Position numbers and translations under genes: made by a program. From Basidiobolus ranarum (Eukaryota): a DNA stretch of 64,000 bases. Under the pieces are notes generated by a model. The model saw nothing but the letters and a program-made list of their open reading frames with translations. It made no database searches and was not told where the DNA came from. The stretch's first letter is position 1; every line of letters starts with the position of its first letter. Positions 18,157 to 58,114 of this stretch are shown one piece after another. The stretch covers positions 1 through 64,000 of the forward strand of contig JASJQH010006878.1 of assembly GCA_040143965.1 (NCBI GenBank). Direction: 5' to 3'.

Positions 18157-19432
18157 ATGGGGACTTCAAATAGTGATCTTACTACCAATGTGCCTTTGGC
18201 TGTTATAACTACTCCCAGCACTACGGGGACAACAAGCGCACTCACTACTTTAAATTCTCAGACAAATACCACTTCCACACAGGAAGTTAGACCAAATATT
18301 CAAGCACGCTTTTCAGTTGCAAGCGCTGGCCGTTCTCAAACAAATGCTTCTATTGCCCCAAGCGAGCACAACTGGTTTACTTATGCTCTTCATCGGTATC
18401 GAAACCTCCCACGTTATCACAAGATTATGTTAACGCTATCTTTAATTATAAGCACGTCTCAGGTATTCAACAATAGAGAAGTTACCTTCTGAAGCAATAC
18501 TAATATTAAAATCTTTATATTATCTACAGATAGTCTCCATCACTAGTGTTGTAGGTATTACAGCATATCAGAGTTGCGAGTCTTTATTTCGTTTCTACCT
18601 TATAGCTACCGCTGTCAGACTACTCTTGTATACCCCGTTGATAGGAATATATTACTTGCATCCAGAGGGACGTAACACTCATTACTCTACCTCTATATTT
18701 TTGAGCTGGGTAAATCGTAGTAGAAGTGTATTGGATTTTTTTGGAACCATGTTATTTTTAGTGGGAAATTATCTCATATTTACCACCGAAATATGTTCCT
18801 CCGGCTCTCCAGGCCTATATGGTTTGACAATAGCATTAGTAGTACTTGGCTACCTGAAGATCATAGTTCCGATCATGTTGTGTGCAGCGATCTTGTGTTT
18901 ACCATGTATTCTTATCGTTTTAAGAGCTTTAAGAATTGGAGAGGTATTGCAAACTGGAGCCAATGAAGAAAGTATTGATAAATTGAGGATAGTAAGATAC
19001 CATAAAAATAGAGAGGAATCAGAGGATCAAGAAAATTCATCTGGAAAGAAATCTACCGAAATCTCCCATGTTACGAACGCATCTAATAAGAATACTCGGC
19101 CTAATTTATTCACTCGCATATTACTTAAAATCTTTCGAAGAAACAAATCTAAAGAAATCCCTGTCAATGATAATGTTGAAGAAGGAAAGCCTGAAGGAGG
19201 GAGTCAGCAAGTAGTCTACTTATCAGATGAAGATGCTGTATGTTGTATCTGCTTGGAAGAGTATTCGGATGGAGAGAAGTTGCGTGAAATGAAATGCATA
19301 CATTACTTCCATGTACATTGTATCGATGAATGGTTGAAGCTGAATAGAACTTGTCCATTATGTAAACGAGATATTGAATTCGACAAATCCACTGAAGAGA
19401 CAGAAACCACCGAGTCGAATGTCAACTCTTGA
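18157..19432 (+). CDS. transmembrane RING-H2 E3 ubiquitin ligase
   Basis: Several TM helices, then [37 protein letters not shown]. One intron near 18463-18529. Confidence 0.92.
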
Positions 19433-44450: not shown

Positions 44451-46276
44451 ATGGATCCCAGAATCAATGAAAAGGAAGCTGCTGCTATCCACGCTGCTGC
44501 AGTAACCAGAAACTACTCTTTACAACCACGTTTAGGTACGATATACCCCCTTTTTTTGACTTCTTCCCCTCATCTACAAACTATATGTGCAGTATGTAAC
44601 ACTATTATTCTGTAATATAGATTACAGAACTGTTGCCGGTGTCAACGGTCCTTTAGTCATTCTTGATAACGTCAAGGTATTTCCCCTGTTTACGTTATAT
44701 AACTTCTCACCTCATTTTTCTCACACGCTTATCATACTATAGTTCCCCAAATTCGCTGAAATTGTCGAACTTACTTTACCAGATGGTACTAAGCGTTCTG
44801 GCCAAGTACTAGAAGTCCAAGGAAAGAGAGCTGTTGTGCAGGTATGTAGCTATTCATGCTCACTTTACTTGTTCAATTCTCATGTAGTTTCTCCAAACCG
44901 TAGGTTTTCGAAGGTACCGCTGGTGTTGATGCTCGTGCCACTCATGTTGAATTCACTGGTGATACCCTAAAGATGCCCGTCTCGGAAGATATGTTGGGTC
45001 GTGTTTTCAACGGTTCTGGTAAAAGTATTGACAAGGGCCCTAAAGTATTTGCTGAAGAATTCCTGGATATTGAAGGTTTGTTTCACTACATTCATTCCGA
45101 ATGTTTTTTTAGTCAATCCTCTCATTCCCTTGCTAACAAAATACCATTTTAACACCCAAAGGTTCTCCAATCAACCCCTTCTCACGTATTTACCCCGAAG
45201 AAATGATTCAAACCGGTATCTCTGCTATTGATACCATGAATTCTATTGCCCGTGGTCAAAAGATCCCCATTTTCTCTGCTGCTGGTTTGCCTCATAATGA
45301 AGTTGCAGCTCAAATTTGCCGACAAGCAGGTTTAGTCAAGAAGCCCACTAAGGATGTTCACGATGGTCATGAAGACAACTTCGCTATTGTATTTGCTGCC
45401 ATGGGTGTCAATATGGAAACTGCTCGTTTCTTCAAGCAGGACTTCGAGGAGAATGGCTCTATTGAACGTGTCACATTGTTCCTCAATCTTGCCAATGATC
45501 CTACTATTGAACGTATCATTACTCCCAGATTGGCCTTGACTACCGCAGAATACTATGCCTATCAGCTCGAGAAACACGTGTTGGTTATCTTGACCGATAT
45601 GTCTTCCTATGCTGATGCCTTGCGTGAAGTTTCTGCTGCCAGAGAAGAAGTACCTGGTCGTCGTGGTTATCCCGGTTATATGTACACCGATTTGTCCACC
45701 ATTTACGAGCGTGCTGGTCGTGTTGAAGGCCGTAATGGCTCCATTACACAAATCCCTATTTTGACTATGCCTAACGATGATATTACACATCCTATTCCTG
45801 ATTTGACTGGCTACATTACTGAGGGACAGATTTATGTGGACCGTCAACTCCACAATCGCCAAATTTACCCACCCATCAACGTTTTGCCTTCTCTTTCTCG
45901 TCTCATGAAGTCTGCCATTGGTGAAGGTATGACTCGTAAGGACCATGGTGATGTTTCCAACCAACTGTATGCCAAGTATGCCATTGGTCGTGATGCTGCT
46001 GCCATGAAGGCTGTCGTTGGTGAAGAAGCTCTTAACCAGGAAGATAAACTTTCTCTCGAGTTTTTGGACAAATTCGAAAAGACCTTCATTGCTCAAGGCC
46101 ATTACGAATCCAGAACCATTTTTGAATCTCTCGATCATGCCTGGTCTCTTCTTCGTATCTTCCCCAAGGAGTTGCTTAACCGTATCCCTCAAAAGACCTT
46201 GGCCGAGTTTTATCAACGTGATCGTAAGAAGGGTAACAAAGACACCATTGATAACGAAATTGACACTAAAGCATAG
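44451..46276 (+). CDS. VMA2: V-type ATPase subunit B
   Basis: [32 protein letters not shown] and [15 protein letters not shown]. Confidence 0.98.
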
Positions 46277-48711: not shown

Positions 48712-50881
48712 CTAAAAAGGCACATAACTCAACCCTGATTCTTGCTTGACTAGCATTTGTTGACGTCTTACTAACTCTTGTTCAAGATCTTGAATGCGTC
48801 GGTTAAGGGCCAAGAATAACACGGATTTCGGCATTTGGTTTGGTGCTTGAGATAAATCAATGGCCGCTGGATAATAAAATATTGTTTAGATTCGGTATAC
48901 TCTAATATATCGCAACAACTACTTACCAGAGCTTTCTGTCATTCCTCCTAATCGTCTATTATTAAACCAACCACGGAGAGCATGTAGTGTTAGGTTCATA
49001 CTGTTGGCAAGCTCGATGATTTGAGGGTGGTTAGGGTATGGCGTGGTGGTAAAGACCTCCTCCAACTTAGCCACAACCTCAGGGCTAAAAAGAGTGTAGC
49101 CATCTCTTTGACTCTCTAAATCAGACTTGCGGTCTCGACGGCGAAGCTCTTTAAACCATCGCTCGATATTCTACAATATATAATCAAATTTAGTTACTTG
49201 GAAATTAATGTCGCTCGCTATTGCCATTGTTCTGACCTTGAACGTTTCATTGTACTGCTCAGCCAACTCTTGGATCGTTTCTCGGGATGGATACATAACT
49301 TGCTTGTGGACTTCTTCTACTGCAAGGTGAAGAGGATCCTCATAGTAACCTACTCTGGATTGCCGCTCACGGAACCAAGCATTAATTTTAAGATAGTCAA
49401 TACCCAATTGCTCCGCCAACTCCTTACGCTGTAGCGAGGTGGGGTACCCATGACATTCGTCGTAAAGCTTACTCATTGCTTCCACAACTGGTGGTGGGAA
49501 TCTAGCTAACTTAGCGGCTCGTTTGTTCTTGGGTTTAACAGTTTTATCTACCATTTTTCTCTTCTCTGGAGTTGTTTTGGGGTGCGGGTTCAGAGGATGT
49601 TGATCTATCTCGATTCCTCTTTCTCGGTCTTCGGCACGGCGTTTGTAAAACCATTGAGAGATTGACTAGCGTATAGGTATTACTAAAATGGAACGCAAAC
49701 AATCATTCCATTCAATAACATACCTTATCACTTCTCTTTAAATGCTCCGCAAGCTCTAATAATTGTTCAGCACTGGGAAATGGTGTTTGCTCGTAAAAGT
49801 CATGTAGTGTCTGTATAGCTTCAGGAGTATACTTGACCAATGCAGGTTTAATATCAACGCCATCATTTCTGTCACGATCTCGTCTCTTAGAAAACCAGCG
49901 TTTGATTCTCTAATGTTAATAAGAAAATGATTAGAATATGTCTACGTGGACAATACGAATATCTCCAGTCTAAGTAACAAAACTTACTCTTAACGTGACG
50001 TCGTTTTCACTGGCTAACTGTTCCATAACTGGAACTGGTGGATAAAATGTATCTTTATAAACCTTTTCACATGACTCGCCAAGTTTTTCCAAATCACATT
50101 CAGGTGCGCTACAAATAACTGGAGAAATGATTTCGGCACCTTTTTGGCGTAACTGGTTTCGTCTATTTGTGAACCACAAGATAATTTTCTATGAATGAAT
50201 TAAACCTTGTTTAGAATACATGCCACTCGATGAACTTGTTGTGAAAATACCTTTCTATTTACTCCCATTTTGTAGGCGATTTGTGTATATTCTTGTGTAG
50301 AAGGATATTTATTCTGTTGGAAGATGGGCTCAAGGTAAAAAGCAAGCGCGTTCTTTTTTCGAGCATTAATCGATTCATAATCTGCGGAAGTTATTTGATT
50401 GACGCGTTTGTTGGTTGGTGAGTAATATAGTTGCCAAAAACTTCTCACTATCTCAGAAGTCGTGTCAGCCTCTTGAGCAAATTTTTTCAGTTGGTCTTCG
50501 TTAGGAGAAGAAGTAGCCAAGATAAAGGAGCGTATTTTTTCTACATTTTCAGTAGTTAAGCCCACCTCTTTACTCCTAGTAGCTTTTCTTCTTCTGTTTC
50601 TAAACCAAGCTTTGGTGGACTTTATAAGTTCAAGTTCGGAAAGAGAGTAAGTGACAGTTGGTGTCAAACTTATTTGATAAAAAAATTACGCGACAAACCT
50701 CTTGTTCAACCGAGCAAACTTCACAAATAACACTATATTCATATTGGTTTGGGTAGGGATTGCATATATAGTATTCTTCAAAGCGTTCTCGTACAGACTG
50801 GCTTAAGTGTCGGGTGATAGAGGATTTTTTTGGCTTGTCAGAGTCTACACATTCAACCTCGACCTCAGCTTCAGCTGCCAT
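48712..50881 (-). CDS. multi-homeodomain protein (about 8 tandem homeodomains), 7 exons
   Basis: Repeated YP..(helix 2)..WF.nRR units: AWFRNRRR, LWFTNRRN, RWFSKRRD, QWFYKRRA, AWFRERQS, RWFKELRR and GWFNNRRL, plus one degenerate unit. A C-terminal coiled-coil-like segment follows (3' end slightly uncertain). Confidence 0.88.
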
Positions 50882-52931: not shown

Positions 52932-55128
52932 CTAATAAGCCGAAGTATCAATCAATTTATAGTTACTAATGCAATCGAGAACCCAATTGGCTAACACCAC
53001 CTCACGAGAATATTGCTCTCGAAGCCTATTTTTCGTTCGCATTGCTGTCGCATTATCACATATCACTAAAGTCTGTTGTGAACAATTCGAGGGAGGACAC
53101 TTGTCGACGATTGTGGCTCCACCTGCAGTTAACAGTGTGATAAGGTCGTCACGCGACGGTTGCTTAAACTCACCAACAAGGAGATATTGTTGGTTATGGA
53201 ATAACTTTGGTTCCTACGTGCAATTCGAATCATTAGCTGGTGAGGATGGAAAGTAAATTGATCCACAAAGAGGCTTACTCCATTTTTTATACTTTGACGA
53301 GCTCTCTTCGGTCCATAATTTGAATAACGTTCGTCACCAATAACTTCATAAACATCTTCATCAAGCCATTCATTGCGGCTCAGTGAATCTTCAATCCCTA
53401 CTCGATTTCAATATAGTTTAGGTTGAGGTGTATTCTATGGAAAGGGTAAGCTGTACAAAAGATATACATTGGTAATTTACAAGCCAACGTCCATGCAGTA
53501 TGGCAAGAAAGTATTTCATCGTACGTTTTGAGGTGCCTTTAACTATCAATTGTTTTAATACCATGAAGGATAATGAACTTCGATAATCCATAGATTACCC
53601 GCTTCGGTGACTAGATGTGTAACGTCGCTCGTAAACTCAGTGACGATGGTAGCATTAAGTTTTTTGACCGAGGTATTCATTTTTTTCTTAAGAATAACAA
53701 ATATTAGCTTGGTTATCATCAATGTGAGCGATGTAGAAGAAATGCTGTTATACAATTTGAGAAGCCTTAAGCATCGTTCCTAAGATAACCGGCATTTCTT
53801 GTGTATCTTGATTCTGAGAGGCCACTTCAGAAGAATCAAACAAATCTGGTGAGGAGCACCTTGTGTTCGAAAGCGATTCACGCGATGTATCTTGAGTATC
53901 GTTCTGAATCATGATTTTTGGTGTTCCTTCATCTAGAATATCCGATTTAATAAAAGGAATACTTCCTGTTTGGTGATGAGAGAACTGAACTTACTATTCA
54001 GTTCAGCTAAAACCACATCAACGTCTGATACTAATTGCTGTAGTAACATCAGATTCTGCGTGATTGAAAGTTTTAGTATGGTGTCAACCCAAGTGGGAAT
54101 TTTTCTGAGATTCAATACCTGTGTAGAAGGCTCCACTTGAGAAGCGTCAATATCCACCGACAAACTCGGGTCATATTGAATATGAGCTAGATATCCAGGA
54201 ATGTTAATGGAATCCATGATAAACATTTCCCATCAAACTTACGAGAGTTCGTAGATTTTTCTTTAACAATAAACAATGAGCAAAAGAAAATCGTAATAAG
54301 ATAAATGAGTGTATACACATACCTAAAGAAGAGATGATGTTTTTCCCTTTAGAATATTCGGGTTTAATCATAATTCTATTATTTACGTGATCTCCAGAAT
54401 CCTGAAATATTAATGTTAAACATAATCCCAAGAATGTTTTGATGGTTATTTTGACAATCCACTTACTTGATCGACATCCATAATTTCCATTTTAGCCTTT
54501 CCTTTACTTTTGGTTTTACGCCGTTTATTTCTAATCGGGCTATTGGGAGTATCGTCCTGTTTCGTGTCTACGCCCTCTTTCACCGGGTAGGGATATGCCT
54601 GAGAGAGGTTGGGGATTGGTTCGCATTGCCATTCACTGTGTTGCTTTTCTTGAGATAAGGCTATAATGGTGGTTGGAAGTTTGAGAATTTAACCAATATA
54701 GTAAAAAGGAGGCACTAGTTACCAGCCCCTGTCATTTCTTCGTATGAATCGAGTAATTCTTGATATGCATCGGCTAGTTCCCCGGTTGATTCCATTTTAT
54801 TCAGTCCTCTCTTAGTTATTGGAGTTTTACAAAGTGGACATTTTGCTAGATTCATTTGAAGCGATTGGTGTATGCATTCTTCACAGAATAAATGGTTGCA
54901 TTGGGTTGAATAAGGATCTCGTAGAATTCCCAGGCTAATGAAGATAACATATGTGAATAGTTAAATTATAGAGCTCTTCTTCGAGAATATATTGGTCATT
55001 TAAAAAGACTACCAAATTGGACAATTGAGTTCTGCTGCCATTCGTCGTAGAAGACCACTTACAGTTTTTGGGATTTCCTCATTCACCAAGACTGATTGAG
55101 AGAGGATTGTATTTTGCTCCAAAGACAT
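52932..55128 (-). CDS. BRCA1: BRCA1-like protein (N-terminal RING, C-terminal tandem BRCT), multi-exon
   Basis: RING ELNCPICL..CNHLFC..CPLCKTPITKRGL. BRCT1 THLV..RTMKYFLAILHGRWLVNYQWIEDS..GPKRARQS. BRCT2 KLF..GGATIV..WVLDCISNY. Confidence 0.88.
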
Positions 55129-55529: not shown

Positions 55530-58114
55530 ATGCCGGGTCAAAATCTCAAAAGTAACGTCGACAATGATGACAGCTCGTCTCTATTTATGATTGTATCCTT
55601 TTTATATAGTCCAACATACTAGTTTAGCCTATCTATACTTTACATACGTTTAATTCCTTAACACTGATCTATAGAGCGAAGAAGACATCGCATATGAAGA
55701 AGACCTTTTACGAAACCCTTATACCCTTAAAAGTTGGTTGAGATATTTGGATCACAAGAGTAACTCTTCACTCCAACATAAAATCTTTATCTATGAAAGA
55801 GCTGTCAAAGAACTCCCTGGTTCTTATAAGCTTTGGAAAGCTTACTTGGATCTTAGACGTTCTATCCTCAAGGGTAAGAATCCTGTAAGCTTTGCTCCCG
55901 CATATGAAAAAGTGAACAATTGCTTTGAAAGAGCTTTAGTTTTATTACACAAGGTATGCCACTTCAGAAACCCCCATTCGCATCCACTACTTTGATTTTA
56001 ACTAGATGCTTTGAAACTATAGATGCCTCGTATCTGGCTTGACTATTGTCACTTTTTGATCAATCAAGGGTATGTTACAAAAACCCGTAGAGTTTTTGAT
56101 CGCGCACTTCGTGCTCTTCCCATTACCCAGCATTCTAGAGTATGGGAATTATACTTAAGATTTGCGCGTCTGGTTGGTGGTGAAACCTCGTTACGTATTT
56201 ACAAACGCTATCTTCAATTAGAACCTGACCATGTAGAGGAGTATGTTGATTTACTCATTTCCTTAAAACGATACGACGAGGCCACCACTAAGCTTGCCGT
56301 AATAGCTAATGACGATAAATTCAAATCGTTACATGGAAAGTCTAAATATCAGCTGTGGATGGAGCTCTGTGATATTGCTTGTAAACATCCCACAGAAATT
56401 AAGACCTTAAATATCGAACCTATTATTCGTGATGGAATTAAACGATTTACCGATCAGGTAGGAAAATTGTGGAATTCTTTAGCTAGATACTGGATAATGC
56501 AAAATCAATTCGAAAAAGCTAGAGACGTATACGAAGAGGGGATAAATTCTGTCATGACAGTTCGTGATTTTACTCAAGTCTTCGATGCATACGCTGAATT
56601 TGAAGAGTCTGTTATCACATCTAAAATGGAATTGGTTGCTGAGCGAGCAGAAGATGGTGAACAAGATCCCGAGGAAGATTTGGATCTTGACTTAAGATTG
56701 ATGAGATTTGAAAAATTAATGGATAGACGGCCATTCCTTGTCAACGATGTTCTCCTTAGACAAAACCCTAACAATGTCAGCGAATGGGAAAAACGTGTTG
56801 CCTTGTGGAAAGATAATGCTGAAAAGATTGTTGAGACATACACAACAGCCATAGCTACTATAAATCCCAAGAAAGCCACTGGTAAACTCAATCAATTATG
56901 GGTGAACTTTGCTAAGTTTTACGAAAAAGGAGGTAACTTGGAAACAGCCCGTGCCGTTTTTGAAAAAGGAGTTTTGGTCAACTTCAAGTCTGTGAATGAT
57001 TTGGCCGATCTCTGGTGTGAATATGCCGAAATGGAACTTCGACATGAGAATTTCGATAGGGCTGCTGAGATCATGGGTCGCGCGACTGCTCCTCCAAAGA
57101 ACACCAAAGTCAGTTACCATGATGAATCGATACCGGTCCAAAATCGTGTCTTTAAAGCTTTGAAGCTCTGGTCGTTTTATGTTGATCTTGAAGAAAGTAT
57201 TGGTTCTGTTGAATCCACTCGTGCTGTATATGACCGTGTTTTAGACTTGAAGATTGCTACACCACAGATCATCATCAATTACGCCGCTTTTCTGGAAGAA
57301 AACAAATACTTTGAAGAGAGTTTCAAAGTATATGAGCGGGGTGTTGAGTTGTTCAACCATCCAGTGGCTTTCGAAATATGGAATATCTACCTCTCCAAGT
57401 TCCTTGAACGCTTTGGCGGCTCCAAGCTTGAGCGCGCCCGAGATCTCTTCGAACAAGCATTGGAGAAGTGTCCTGCTAAATTTGCCAAACCTCTTTATTT
57501 GATGTATGGCAAACTTGAAGAAGAACACGGTTTAGCCAAGCATGCCATGAAGATTTATGATCGTGCTACTAGAGCAGTCTCTGATGAAGACAGATTTGAA
57601 ATGTTTAATTTCTATATCGCCAAGGCCAGTGCCTCATTTGGTATCGCATCTACCCGCGAAATTTATGAACGTTCGGTGGAGGTTTTACCAGATCACCAAG
57701 CCAGAGAAATGTGTATGAGATATGCCGAGTTAGAAGTTAAGCTTGGCGAAATTGACCGTGCTAGAGCTTTATATGCATTTGGATCTCAGTTCTGCGATCC
57801 TCGAGTAAGTGTTAGTTGTTTAAGAGGATCTTTCTTCATAGTGTTGACCCTTATTTCTATTTTAGATTGTACCTACGTTCTGGAAGATCTGGGAGAATTT
57901 CGAAATTAAGCATGGTAATGAGGATACTTACAAGGAGATGCTTCGCATCAAGAGAAGTGTTCAAGCACAATATAACACGGAGGTTAATTTCATCTCGGCT
58001 CAAATGATCGCTACTCGCCAGGAACAGCAGCAACAAGAAACTGAATCTAAGGCACCAGCAAGCACTGAAGTAGCTGGATCTGGAGAAATTGATATCGACG
58101 ATATGGATCTCTAA
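55530..58114 (+). CDS. SYF1: pre-mRNA splicing factor SYF1/XAB2 (HAT repeats)
   Basis: [42 protein letters not shown] and [17 protein letters not shown]. Confidence 0.97.
55593..55674 (+). other. U12-type GT-AG intron (intron 1 of SYF1)
   Basis: 5' GTATCCTTT, branch TTCCTTAAC at 55654-55662, short distance to AG, phase 0. Confidence 0.85.

What the first reader, a model, noticed from the sequence alone, without database searches (positions are those of the whole stretch)
52932..55128. A compact BRCA1 orthologue in a fungus, apparently sharing three intron positions with human BRCA1
Seen: the spliced gene encodes RING + central SQ-containing region + two BRCTs. Its motifs closely echo human BRCA1 (CPLCKTPITKR vs CPLCKNDITKR; RTMKYFL vs RTLKYFL; GPKRARQS vs GPKRARES; WVLDC vs WVLDS). 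Introns fall in phase 2 inside the Cys of CPIC (54935-55012), phase 1 after THLVTEA (53543-53598) and phase 1 inside the Trp of YQW (53398-53467). Known from memory: human BRCA1 has junctions at c.80 (C27), c.5074 (D1692) and c.5152 (W1718), and yeasts lack BRCA1. Inference: a vertically inherited, much shorter BRCA1, offering a fungal model of minimal BRCA1 function. The ORF track largely misses it.
Basis: partly seen in the sequence, partly recalled or inferred. Interest (0 to 1): 0.85.

Follow-up and report, generated by a model that had tools for sequence, protein, structure and literature searches.

The report
Fungal BRCA1-like gene, already annotated
This is a real, compact BRCA1-type DNA-repair gene of the fungus Basidiobolus ranarum that keeps several intron positions of the human BRCA1/BARD1 family, but it is already named in the public record and such genes have been reported in early-diverging fungi.

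Summary
A 12-exon minus-strand gene (55128..52932; 11 GT-AG introns of 56-78 nt) encodes 496 aa: RING, disordered SQ/TQ-rich centre with one predicted helix, tandem BRCT. The protein is identical to the NCBI entry [quoted passage not shown], one of five deposited isoforms. Compact relatives occur in other early-diverging fungi and in Amoebozoa and Heterolobosea. BRCA1 in early-diverging fungi is in print (PMC11061109).

The three claimed intron matches are right, and there are more. Three positions match human BRCA1 exactly, one lies at a 1-residue gap, one is 3 codons off. Three also match human BARD1 exactly, so they mark the BRCA1/BARD1 family, not BRCA1 alone.

The RING is clearly BRCA1-type (88 vs 44 bits). 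The BRCT pair is equivocal. Trees favour fungi with animal BRCA1 only weakly; an animal-only BRCA1/BARD1 duplication is not rejected (p-AU 0.16).

No fungal BARD1 was found, but the genome could not be searched.

Verdict: real, vertically inherited, already known; strict orthology unresolved.

The parts
52932..55128 (-). Whole coding region of the BRCA1-like gene, ATG to stop. 12 exons: 55128-55013, 54934-54723, 54660-54467, 54401-54323, 54260-54243, 54186-54119, 54055-53995, 53932-53754, 53686-53599, 53542-53468, 53397-53279, 53213-52932.
   Evidence: Splice model. The translation is identical to deposited protein P0001.
54730..55062 (-). RING domain with its two flanking helices (aa 23-107). 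The Zn-binding core C36-C74 is at 55023-54829 and is interrupted by intron 1 (55012-54935, phase 2 in Cys39).
   Evidence: Pfam RING families. All 8 Zn ligands and the Ile of CPICL align with fox/human BRCA1. AF2 helices 23-33 and 87-107, block pLDDT 83-94 over aa 21-110. BRCA1-RING HMM 88.1 bits vs BARD1-RING HMM 43.8 bits.
54578..54622 (-). Short motif EPxxNLSQxYPYPxK (aa 123-137), conserved in the fungal relatives. Function unknown.
   Evidence: P124, L128, P133, P135 and K137 are invariant in the 18-sequence fungal alignment A2. Local pLDDT about 60-66 in an otherwise disordered stretch.
54494..54532 (-). Lys/Arg-rich patch (aa 153-165), a possible nuclear localisation signal (inference only).
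   Evidence: Sequence; not tested.
53757..54142 (-). SQ/TQ-rich disordered centre (SQ/TQ at aa 222, 228, 262, 288, 293, 307). It contains the 18-nt micro-exon's neighbours and the predicted helix aa 230-247 (54055-54002, which is exon 7).
   Evidence: SQ/TQ list. Helix 230-247 at low pLDDT. The best, non-significant local match of the centre is to the BRCA1 coiled-coil segment (BLASTP E 0.12; hhalign E 0.4 against 0.92 for the reversed control).
54243..54260 (-). 18-nt micro-exon (encodes most of EKSTNS); in frame whether kept or skipped.
   Evidence: Present in all 5 deposited isoforms. An equivalent stretch is present in the B. meristosporus protein.
53318..53789 (-). First BRCT repeat and linker (aa 298-390), split by introns 8 (53753-53687, phase 0), 9 (53598-53543, phase 1) and 10 (53467-53398, phase 1 in Trp364). 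Candidate phosphate-pocket residues are T302, T346 and K348, plus R345.
   Evidence: Pfam BRCT. Alignment to BRCA1 and BARD1. Block pLDDT 80-95 over aa 301-390. Intron columns.
52935..53213 (-). Second BRCT repeat (aa 404-496), a single exon after intron 11 (53278-53214, phase 0).
   Evidence: Pfam BRCT_2, 1.3e-9 for this exon alone. Foldseek best matches are BRCA1 and BARD1 tandem BRCTs.

Best explanation
This is the Basidiobolus ranarum member of the BRCA1/BARD1 family, and most likely the fungal counterpart of BRCA1.

Proposed mechanism, by analogy with BRCA1:
- The N-terminal RING, with its two flanking helices, dimerises through a four-helix bundle and recruits a ubiquitin-conjugating enzyme, making it an E3 ubiquitin ligase subunit.
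- The disordered centre carries SQ/TQ sites that a checkpoint kinase could phosphorylate, plus one short helix that may bind a partner.
- The C-terminal tandem BRCT reads phosphoserine peptides of repair factors.
- Together these would bring ligase activity to damaged or replicating chromatin and promote recombinational repair.

Shown here: the gene structure, the domains, the BRCA1-type RING, the conserved intron positions and the spread among early-diverging fungi.

Inferred only: ligase activity, phosphopeptide binding, the DNA-repair role, and strict orthology to BRCA1 rather than to the undivided BRCA1/BARD1 ancestor.
For: Gene model and identity to the deposited protein named BRCA1.

Domains: RING plus two BRCTs, no ankyrin. 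AF2 model with confident RING (block pLDDT 83-94) and BRCT pair (block pLDDT mostly 87-95, two blocks at 74-80). Best Foldseek match is the BRCA1 BRCT 9qpx_A (E 2.4e-18, TMt 0.83); the best BARD1 match is 6m14_A (E 3.7e-18, TMt 0.74).

RING: the best solved relative is human BRCA1 1JM7_A at 56.4 bits, against 15.8 bits for the BARD1 RING stretch. Class HMMs give 88.1 bits (animal BRCA1) vs 43.8 bits (animal BARD1). All 22 of 22 fungal relatives that have a RING favour BRCA1, by +27 to +50 bits. For comparison, 23 plant-type proteins give +4.5 to +20.5 and 3 amoebozoan/heterolobosean proteins give +0.8 to +10.

Database search: after 10 named fungal relatives, the next hits are 7 animal BRCA1 entries (E 2e-27 to 6e-20); no BARD1 is among the 41 hits.

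Introns: 3 positions are exact with human BRCA1 (Cys27, 1662|1663, Trp1718). One is at an adjacent column across a 1-residue gap (Asp1692). One is 3 codons off (1759|1760). Phases agree in all five. The 1662|1663 and Asp1692 positions have no BARD1 counterpart.

Tree: the best tree puts fungi with animal BRCA1, against BARD1 and the named outgroups (support 57). In the RING-only test, the tree with fungi and animal BRCA1 held together scored 2.8 log-likelihood units higher than the free search (p-AU 0.57).

Dimerisation: ESMFold2 on two copies of aa 12-118 scored 0.55 against a best of 3 controls of 0.00. The mark was reached by 21 of 30 microbial proteins solved as pairs of one chain and by 0 of 23 solved as single chains; on eukaryotes by 17 of 29 and 0 of 30. 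The runs agree in at least 85% of contacts and the partner pLDDT is at least 76. The interface is helices 23-34 and 84-102. Because BRCA1-BARD1 RING structures are solved, this pass may come from memory and shows likeness only.
Against: The BRCT pair does not side with BRCA1. Solved BARD1 scores 69.2 bits against 63.5 for BRCA1. Exon 12 alone hits BARD1 at E 3.7e-6 and BRCA1 at 0.11. The class HMMs give 154.4 vs 153.9 bits, and 15 of 23 fungal relatives favour the BARD1 BRCT HMM.

Intron 11 matches BARD1 exactly and BRCA1 only within 3 codons.

The tree backbone is weak. Holding animal BRCA1 and BARD1 together costs 14.5 lnL (p-AU 0.161), and holding fungi with BARD1 costs 16.2 lnL (p-AU 0.072). 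Neither is rejected. The RING-only tests are equally open.

The protein lacks the long central region of animal BRCA1, and the coiled-coil likeness is not significant.

No partner protein and no transcript reads could be examined. No function was tested.
Confidence: 0.68

Rival explanations
1. It descends from the undivided BRCA1/BARD1 gene. On this view the duplication that gave BRCA1 and BARD1 happened on the animal side after the split from fungi, so the fungal protein is co-orthologous to both, has no BARD1 partner, and works as a RING homodimer.
For: Mosaic character: a BRCA1-like RING with a BRCT pair that is equivocal or BARD1-leaning. Its intron set is the union of positions kept by BRCA1 and by BARD1, with 3 exact matches each. 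A tree holding animal BRCA1 and BARD1 together is not rejected (p-AU 0.161 concatenated, 0.387 RING only). All 6 plant-type proteins in the tree form one clade (100*), which would fit lineage-specific duplications; I could not label them as BRCA1 or BARD1. All 4 ankyrin-bearing proteins among the 99 representatives scanned are animal. No fungus appears among the best 120 of 708 hits of a BARD1 profile. The homodimer model passed its controls (0.55 vs 0.00, same counts and caveats as above).
Against: The best tree joins fungi to animal BRCA1. Fungal RINGs favour BRCA1 far more than those of plants, Amoebozoa or Heterolobosea do, although fast divergence of the BARD1 RING could also cause this. 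The absence of a fungal BARD1 was not really tested: the genome is not held, only the top 120 of 708 hits were visible, and the word-based search can miss distant relatives. The dimer pass may simply reflect memory of solved BRCA1-BARD1 structures.
Confidence: 0.26
2. It is the fungal orthologue of BARD1, not of BRCA1.
For: The best solved relatives of the BRCT pair, and of exon 12 alone, are BARD1. Intron 11 is exact with BARD1 667|668. [quoted passage not shown]
Against: The RING scores 44 bits better with the BRCA1 HMM. The Pfam BARD1-type RING model scores 25.4 bits, below its 35-bit cut-off, and there are no ankyrin repeats. Introns 8 and 9 match BRCA1 and have no BARD1 counterpart. A tree holding fungi with BARD1 is 16.2 lnL worse (p-AU 0.072).
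Confidence: 0.04
3. It is an unrelated RING-BRCT protein that only resembles BRCA1 by domain shuffling.
For: RING and BRCT are common, mobile domains. The centre has no significant similarity to BRCA1.
Against: Both ends find BRCA1/BARD1 as their best solved relatives. The flanking helices of the RING are conserved. Five intron positions coincide or nearly coincide with the human genes.
Confidence: 0.02

Closest known systems
Animal BRCA1 (human BRCA1; solved RING 1JM7, solved BRCT pair 1JNX/1T15)
   Same: The same domain order: a RING with flanking helices, then a tandem BRCT. All 8 Zn ligands and the CPICL Ile are kept. T/K/R residues sit at the aligned positions of S1655, T1700, K1702 and R1699. 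Three intron positions are exact and two are near, all with the same phase.
   Different: 496 aa instead of about 1,860. It has no large central exon region and no Pfam match in the centre. The coiled-coil likeness is not significant. The residue aligned with M1775 is Pro. The human gene's other introns in these domains are absent.
Animal BARD1
   Same: RING plus tandem BRCT. The BRCT pair is at least as similar to BARD1 as to BRCA1. Three intron positions are exact: Cys53, Trp635 and 667|668.
   Different: No ankyrin repeats, and the RING is not of BARD1 type. The BARD1 introns at codon 604 and at 559|560 are not shared.
Compact RING-BRCT proteins of other early-diverging fungi (Umbelopsis, Mortierella, Linnemannia, Dimargaris, Calcarisporiella, Jimgerdemannia, Mucorales), some named BRCA1 by UniRef/NCBI; BRCA1 is listed for early-diverging fungi in PMC11061109
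   Same: The same architecture and size (387-608 aa). They share the EPxxNLSQxYPYPxK motif after the RING.
   Different: Identity outside Basidiobolus is only 25-36% in alignment A2. The second BRCT of the Mortierellaceae members is more divergent.
Plant BRCA1/BARD1 (RING, PHD-like finger, tandem BRCT)
   Same: The same family and the same end domains.
   Different: The plant proteins carry a PHD-like zf-HC5HC2H domain that is absent here.

Membership tests
BRCA1 | N-terminal C3HC4 RING with helices on both sides (dimerisation bundle) | tested here: met
   Pfam RING at 35-74. The 8 Zn ligands align with BRCA1. AF2 helices 23-33 and 87-107.
BRCA1 | RING closer to BRCA1 than to BARD1 | tested here: met
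   56.4 vs 15.8 bits against solved chains. 88.1 vs 43.8 bits against class HMMs.
BRCA1 | C-terminal tandem BRCT with a phosphoserine pocket | tested here: met
   Pfam BRCT and BRCT_2. Foldseek TMt 0.83 to BRCA1 BRCTs. T302, T346 and K348 align with S1655, T1700 and K1702; the roles of those human residues are recalled, not tested.
BRCA1 | BRCT pair closer to BRCA1 than to BARD1 | tested here: inconclusive
   63.5 vs 69.2 bits. 154.4 vs 153.9 bits. TMt 0.83 vs 0.74-0.80.
BRCA1 | Coiled coil before the BRCTs (PALB2-binding in vertebrates, recalled) | tested here: inconclusive
   A predicted helix at 230-247. It is the best local match of the centre to the BRCA1 coiled-coil segment, but E is 0.12 and 0.4.
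BRCA1 | Long central region of animal BRCA1 | tested here: not met
   The centre is only about 190 aa and has no Pfam family. This feature defines the animal form, not the family.
BRCA1 | Forms one clade with animal BRCA1, excluding BARD1 | tested here: inconclusive
   Present in the best tree with support 57. The alternatives are not rejected: p-AU 0.161 and 0.072.
BRCA1 | Shared gene structure | tested here: met
   3 exact and 2 near intron matches, all with equal phase. Junction numbers come from PMC4231409.
BRCA1 | A BARD1 partner encoded in the same genome | not testable with these tools
   The genome is not held. No fungus appears among the best 120 of 708 BARD1-profile hits.
BRCA1 | E3 ligase activity and a DNA-repair role | not testable with these tools
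   This needs biochemistry and genetics.
BARD1 | Ankyrin repeats between RING and BRCTs | tested here: not met
   No Ank family at E <= 0.01. The animal BARD1 representatives score 1e-24 to 1e-32.
BARD1 | BARD1-type RING (Pfam PF14835) | tested here: not met
   25.4 bits, below the 35-bit cut-off.

The most novel reading that the evidence does not exclude
The fungal protein preserves the state before BRCA1 and BARD1 separated: one gene, one RING that pairs with itself, and a five-intron core structure later divided unequally between the two animal genes. It would then be a natural 'one-subunit BRCA1/BARD1', and heterodimers would have arisen independently in animals and plants.
Probability: 0.25. 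Interest if true: 0.6.

Novelty: already known. Interest (0 to 1): 0.3.

Why it matters
The usual statement that fungi lack BRCA1 holds for yeasts only. Early-diverging fungi keep a roughly 500-aa version.

That gives a small, intron-mapped, possibly self-pairing form of a major tumour-suppressor family. In principle it could be studied in tractable relatives such as Mucor or Rhizopus.

- The intron map. Five positions are shared or nearly shared with the human genes, and three of them are common to BRCA1 and BARD1.
- The finding that BRCA1-versus-BARD1 orthology is not settled by the sequences at hand.
- A conserved fungal motif after the RING.

None of this changes the picture of the family, so the interest is modest.

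Tried and rejected
- Own-genome search for BARD1, BRCA2 and BRCC36/Abraxas: no genome is held.
- BARD1 profile search for a fungal partner: the best 120 of 708 hits are animal or unnamed, and the rest are not visible. This is not evidence of absence.
- Naming unnamed representatives: 12 of the 29 looked up carry no organism.
- Coiled-coil homology: hhalign on the central regions gave E 0.4 against 0.92 for the reversed control. Rejected as evidence and kept as a lead.
- Whole-alignment hhalign reported only the BRCT match.
- The BRCT-only FastTree and the concatenated tree left the backbone unresolved.
- I considered using the BRCT motifs as BRCA1 markers and rejected it, because the invertebrate BARD1 consensus has them too.
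- A Mucorales gene called brca1 has been knocked out (PMC12818731, passages read). The text calls it a BRCT-domain protein and the word RING does not occur in it, so I could not tell whether it is the orthologue of this gene. Its supplements and those of PMC11061109 (per-species tables) were not available and may bear on distribution, including Basidiobolus.
- Literature searches: 'BRCA1' with 'Basidiobolus' found 0 papers. Searches for intron-position conservation between BRCA1 and BARD1 found nothing relevant.
Full report
**What is there.** The minus strand between 55128 and 52932 can be spliced into 12 exons. This gives a 1491-nt reading frame of 496 codons. All 11 introns begin GT and end AG, are 56-78 nt long, and have 26-42% G+C. 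The translation is identical to a database protein, P0001. NCBI calls that protein [quoted passage not shown]. Four further isoforms of the same gene lie on the same 74,158-bp contig. Those isoforms differ by retention of intron 10, retention of intron 11, an alternative 3' end, and a start at Met167. Isoforms of this kind usually come from transcript-based annotation, which would place the RING and BRCT exons on one transcript. B. ranarum belongs to Basidiobolomycota. The neighbours are ordinary genes: a SYF1/CRNKL1 splicing factor upstream on the other strand, and homeodomain ORFs and a V-ATPase subunit downstream.

**Domains.** Pfam finds a C3HC4 RING at aa 35-74, BRCT at 308-369 and BRCT_2 at 406-496. 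It finds no ankyrin repeats and nothing in the centre. An AlphaFold2 model built on 18 fungal sequences has a mean pLDDT of 71.2. The RING is confident and has helices on both sides (23-33 and 87-107; block pLDDT 83-94). The BRCT pair is also confident (block pLDDT mostly 87-95, two blocks at 74-80). The centre is disordered (pLDDT below 50) and holds one predicted helix at 230-247. Foldseek's best solved matches are the tandem BRCTs of BRCA1 (9qpx_A, E 2.4e-18, TMt 0.83) and of BARD1 (6m14_A, E 3.7e-18, TMt 0.74). The centre carries SQ/TQ sites at 222, 228, 262, 288, 293 and 307.

**Relatives.** A word-indexed search with the whole protein gave 41 hits. These were itself, the B. meristosporus protein (70% identity; its model lacks the RING), nine proteins of Umbelopsis, Mortierella, Linnemannia and Dimargaris, then seven animal BRCA1 entries (E 2e-27 to 6e-20), then unrelated RING proteins. 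No BARD1 appeared. An exhaustive HMMER search found 5509 representatives at E <= 1e-3, 44 of them at E <= 1e-30. I looked up 29 of these representatives by name:
- 10 are fungi (Calcarisporiella, Jimgerdemannia, Linnemannia, Mortierella x2, Podila, Dissophora, Fennellomyces, Phascolomyces, Halteromyces).
- 4 are animals.
- 2 are Amoebozoa (Balamuthia, Flabellula).
- 1 is Heterolobosea (Willaertia).
- 12 carry no organism.

No named fungal relative is from Dikarya. UniRef already titles some of them "RING-type E3 ubiquitin transferase BRCA1". I scanned 99 representatives under 1300 aa against Pfam. Four have ankyrin repeats and all four are animal. The plant-type ones carry a PHD-like finger.

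**BRCA1 or BARD1?** The RING answers clearly.
- Against solved chains it scores 56.4 bits to human BRCA1 (1JM7_A) and 15.8 bits to a BARD1 RING.
- I built class HMMs from 49 animal BRCA1 sequences and 111 named animal BARD1 sequences. Of the 49, 3 are named. The other 46 are unnamed proteins of 1300 aa or more, the placed ones of which fall in the clade that holds named BRCA1.
- The query RING scores 88.1 vs 43.8 bits against these HMMs.
- All 22 of 22 fungal relatives that have a RING favour BRCA1, by +27.3 to +50.5 bits.
- By comparison, 23 plant-type proteins give +4.5 to +20.5 and three amoebozoan/heterolobosean proteins give +0.8 to +10.0.

The BRCT pair does not answer.
- Solved BARD1 scores 69.2 bits and BRCA1 63.5 bits.
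- The last exon alone hits BARD1 at 3.7e-6 and BRCA1 at 0.11.
- The class HMMs give 154.4 vs 153.9 bits. Only 8 of 23 fungal relatives favour BRCA1, and the plant proteins mostly favour the BARD1 model too.

**Trees.** I chose 54 of the 328 proteins held at that point: 12 fungal, 13 animal BRCA1, 12 animal BARD1 and 17 others. I left out the RING-less B. meristosporus model, the Dimargaris and other proteins with partial BRCT coverage, and the long-branched springtail BRCA1. The RING and BRCT blocks were concatenated (310 columns; IQ-TREE, LG+C20+F+G4). Animal BRCA1 (100*), animal BARD1 (98*) and the plant-type proteins (100*) are each clades, but the backbone is weak.
- The best tree has fungi plus animal BRCA1 on one side of a branch against BARD1 and the named outgroups, with support 57.
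- Holding animal BRCA1 and BARD1 together costs 14.5 log-likelihood units (p-AU 0.161).
- Holding fungi with BARD1 costs 16.2 units (p-AU 0.072).
- RING-only tests are equally open: the fungi-with-BRCA1 tree scored 2.8 units higher than the free search (p 0.57); BRCA1 with BARD1 costs 3.9 (p 0.387); fungi with BARD1 costs 11.2 (p 0.185).

So the sequences favour, but do not establish, strict BRCA1 orthology. The alternative is a fungal gene descending from the undivided BRCA1/BARD1 gene, and it stays open.

**Intron positions.** Human junction numbers were taken from tables and text in two papers (passages read). For BRCA1 they are c.80|81, c.4986|4987, c.5074|5075, c.5152|5153, c.5193|5194 and c.5277|5278 (PMC4231409). 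For BARD1 they are c.158|159, c.1677|1678, c.1810|1811, c.1903|1904 and c.2001|2002 (PMC6877745). Codons and phases are my arithmetic.

Human numbering was carried over in two ways. For BRCA1 I went through the fox protein P0012: its residue 581 aligns with the first residue of chain 1JNX, which I recall as residue 1646. For BARD1 I went through a capuchin protein whose first CxxC is at 50-53 and whose later residues are offset by +1, consistent with chain 2NTE. Two independent alignments agree: the BLASTP pair and the 54-row L-INS-i alignment.

| Fungal intron | Phase and position | Human BRCA1 | Human BARD1 |
|---|---|---|---|
| 1 | phase 2, second Cys of CPIC | Cys27, same column | Cys53, same column |
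| 8 | phase 0, 309\|310 | 1662\|1663, exact | no intron |
| 9 | phase 1, codon 339 | Asp1692, adjacent column across a 1-residue gap | nearest intron in codon 604, 12 columns (8 codons) away |
| 10 | phase 1, in Trp364 | Trp1718, same column | Trp635, same column |
| 11 | phase 0, 403\|404 | 1759\|1760, three columns away in a linker where BRCA1 is 3 residues shorter | 667\|668, exact |

Intron 2 (phase 1, codon 110) lies one codon from BRCA1 c.301|302 (phase 1, codon 101) if the alignment is extended ungapped past Gly108/Gly98. I do not count it.

But three of the five positions are family-wide, two are BRCA1-only and one is BARD1-exact. This fits vertical inheritance of an old gene structure and does not by itself decide orthology.

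**Other features.** The best local match of the centre to animal BRCA1 falls on the helix at 230-247 and the BRCA1 coiled-coil segment. It is not significant: BLASTP E 0.12; hhalign E 0.4 against 0.92 for a reversed control. A motif EPxxNLSQxYPYPxK (aa 123-137) has five invariant residues across 18 fungal sequences and is unexplained. ESMFold2 on two copies of aa 12-118 scored 0.55 against a best of three controls of 0.00. The mark was reached by 21 of 30 microbial proteins solved as pairs of one chain and by 0 of 23 solved as single chains; on eukaryotes by 17 of 29 and 0 of 30, but by only 1 of 7 with no older solved relative. The runs agree in at least 85% of contacts and the partner pLDDT is at least 76. 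The interface is formed by the flanking helices. Because BRCA1-BARD1 RING structures are solved, this shows likeness to that bundle, not that the fungal protein self-pairs.

**What is known.**
- PMC8483008 (passages) states that databases hold no fungal BRCA1 orthologues, which contradict.
- PMC11061109 (passages) lists BRCA1 among Fanconi-pathway genes predicted and expressed in Mucorales and Mortierellomycotina.
- PMC12818731 (passages) knocks out a Mucorales gene called brca1, described only as a BRCT-domain protein. I could not tell whether it is the orthologue of this gene.
- No paper holds both 'BRCA1' and 'Basidiobolus'.
- I found nothing on shared BRCA1/BARD1 intron positions.
- Supplementary tables of these papers were not available and may list Basidiobolus.

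**Verdict.** The gene is real and correctly read, vertically inherited, and the fungal counterpart of BRCA1 by its RING. It is already annotated and its family is already reported, so it scores low on novelty. The open points are whether these fungi have a BARD1 partner and whether the gene predates the BRCA1/BARD1 split.

Noticed in passing
window 54578-54622 (aa 123-137): The motif EPxxNLSQxYPYPxK just after the RING has five invariant residues in 18 fungal relatives. It has a slightly raised pLDDT in a disordered stretch. No known counterpart was found.
   Followed up: partly
window 54002-54055 (aa 230-247): This predicted helix, encoded almost exactly by exon 7, is the best but non-significant match of the centre to the BRCA1 coiled-coil segment.
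   Followed up: yes
window 54243-54260: An 18-nt micro-exon that stays in frame whether kept or skipped. It is present in all five deposited isoforms.
   Followed up: partly
window 56023-57909 (+): A long open frame encoding a SYF1/CRNKL1-type pre-mRNA splicing factor (HAT repeats, E 7e-175), divergent from the BRCA1-like gene.
   Followed up: partly
window 49174-49665 and 50203-50685 (-): Two open frames with homeodomain matches (1.6e-11 and 7e-5) downstream of the gene.
   Followed up: no
window 45137-46273 (+): An open frame with V/A-type ATPase nucleotide-binding and C-terminal domains.
   Followed up: no
window 19100-19399 (+): A separate RING-H2 finger (zf-RING_2, 2e-14), picked up weakly by protist RING-BRCT queries. 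No BRCT lies nearby in the tblastn hits.
   Followed up: partly
protein P0080 (unnamed, 446 aa): This was the only protein without an ankyrin match at E <= 1e-9 whose RING clearly favours the BARD1 HMM over the BRCA1 HMM (58.9 vs 43.6 bits). Its organism is unknown. It could be a non-animal BARD1-like protein.
   Followed up: no
protein P0003 (Umbelopsis isabellina, 839 aa): The RING starts at about aa 362, and a TBC-domain family (PF00566) is listed for the protein. This is probably a fused gene model.
   Followed up: no
plant-type representatives in the tree: All six RING-PHD-BRCT proteins, 686-1016 aa long, form one clade (100*). If they include both plant BRCA1 and plant BARD1, that points to a plant-specific duplication. 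I could not label them.
   Followed up: no
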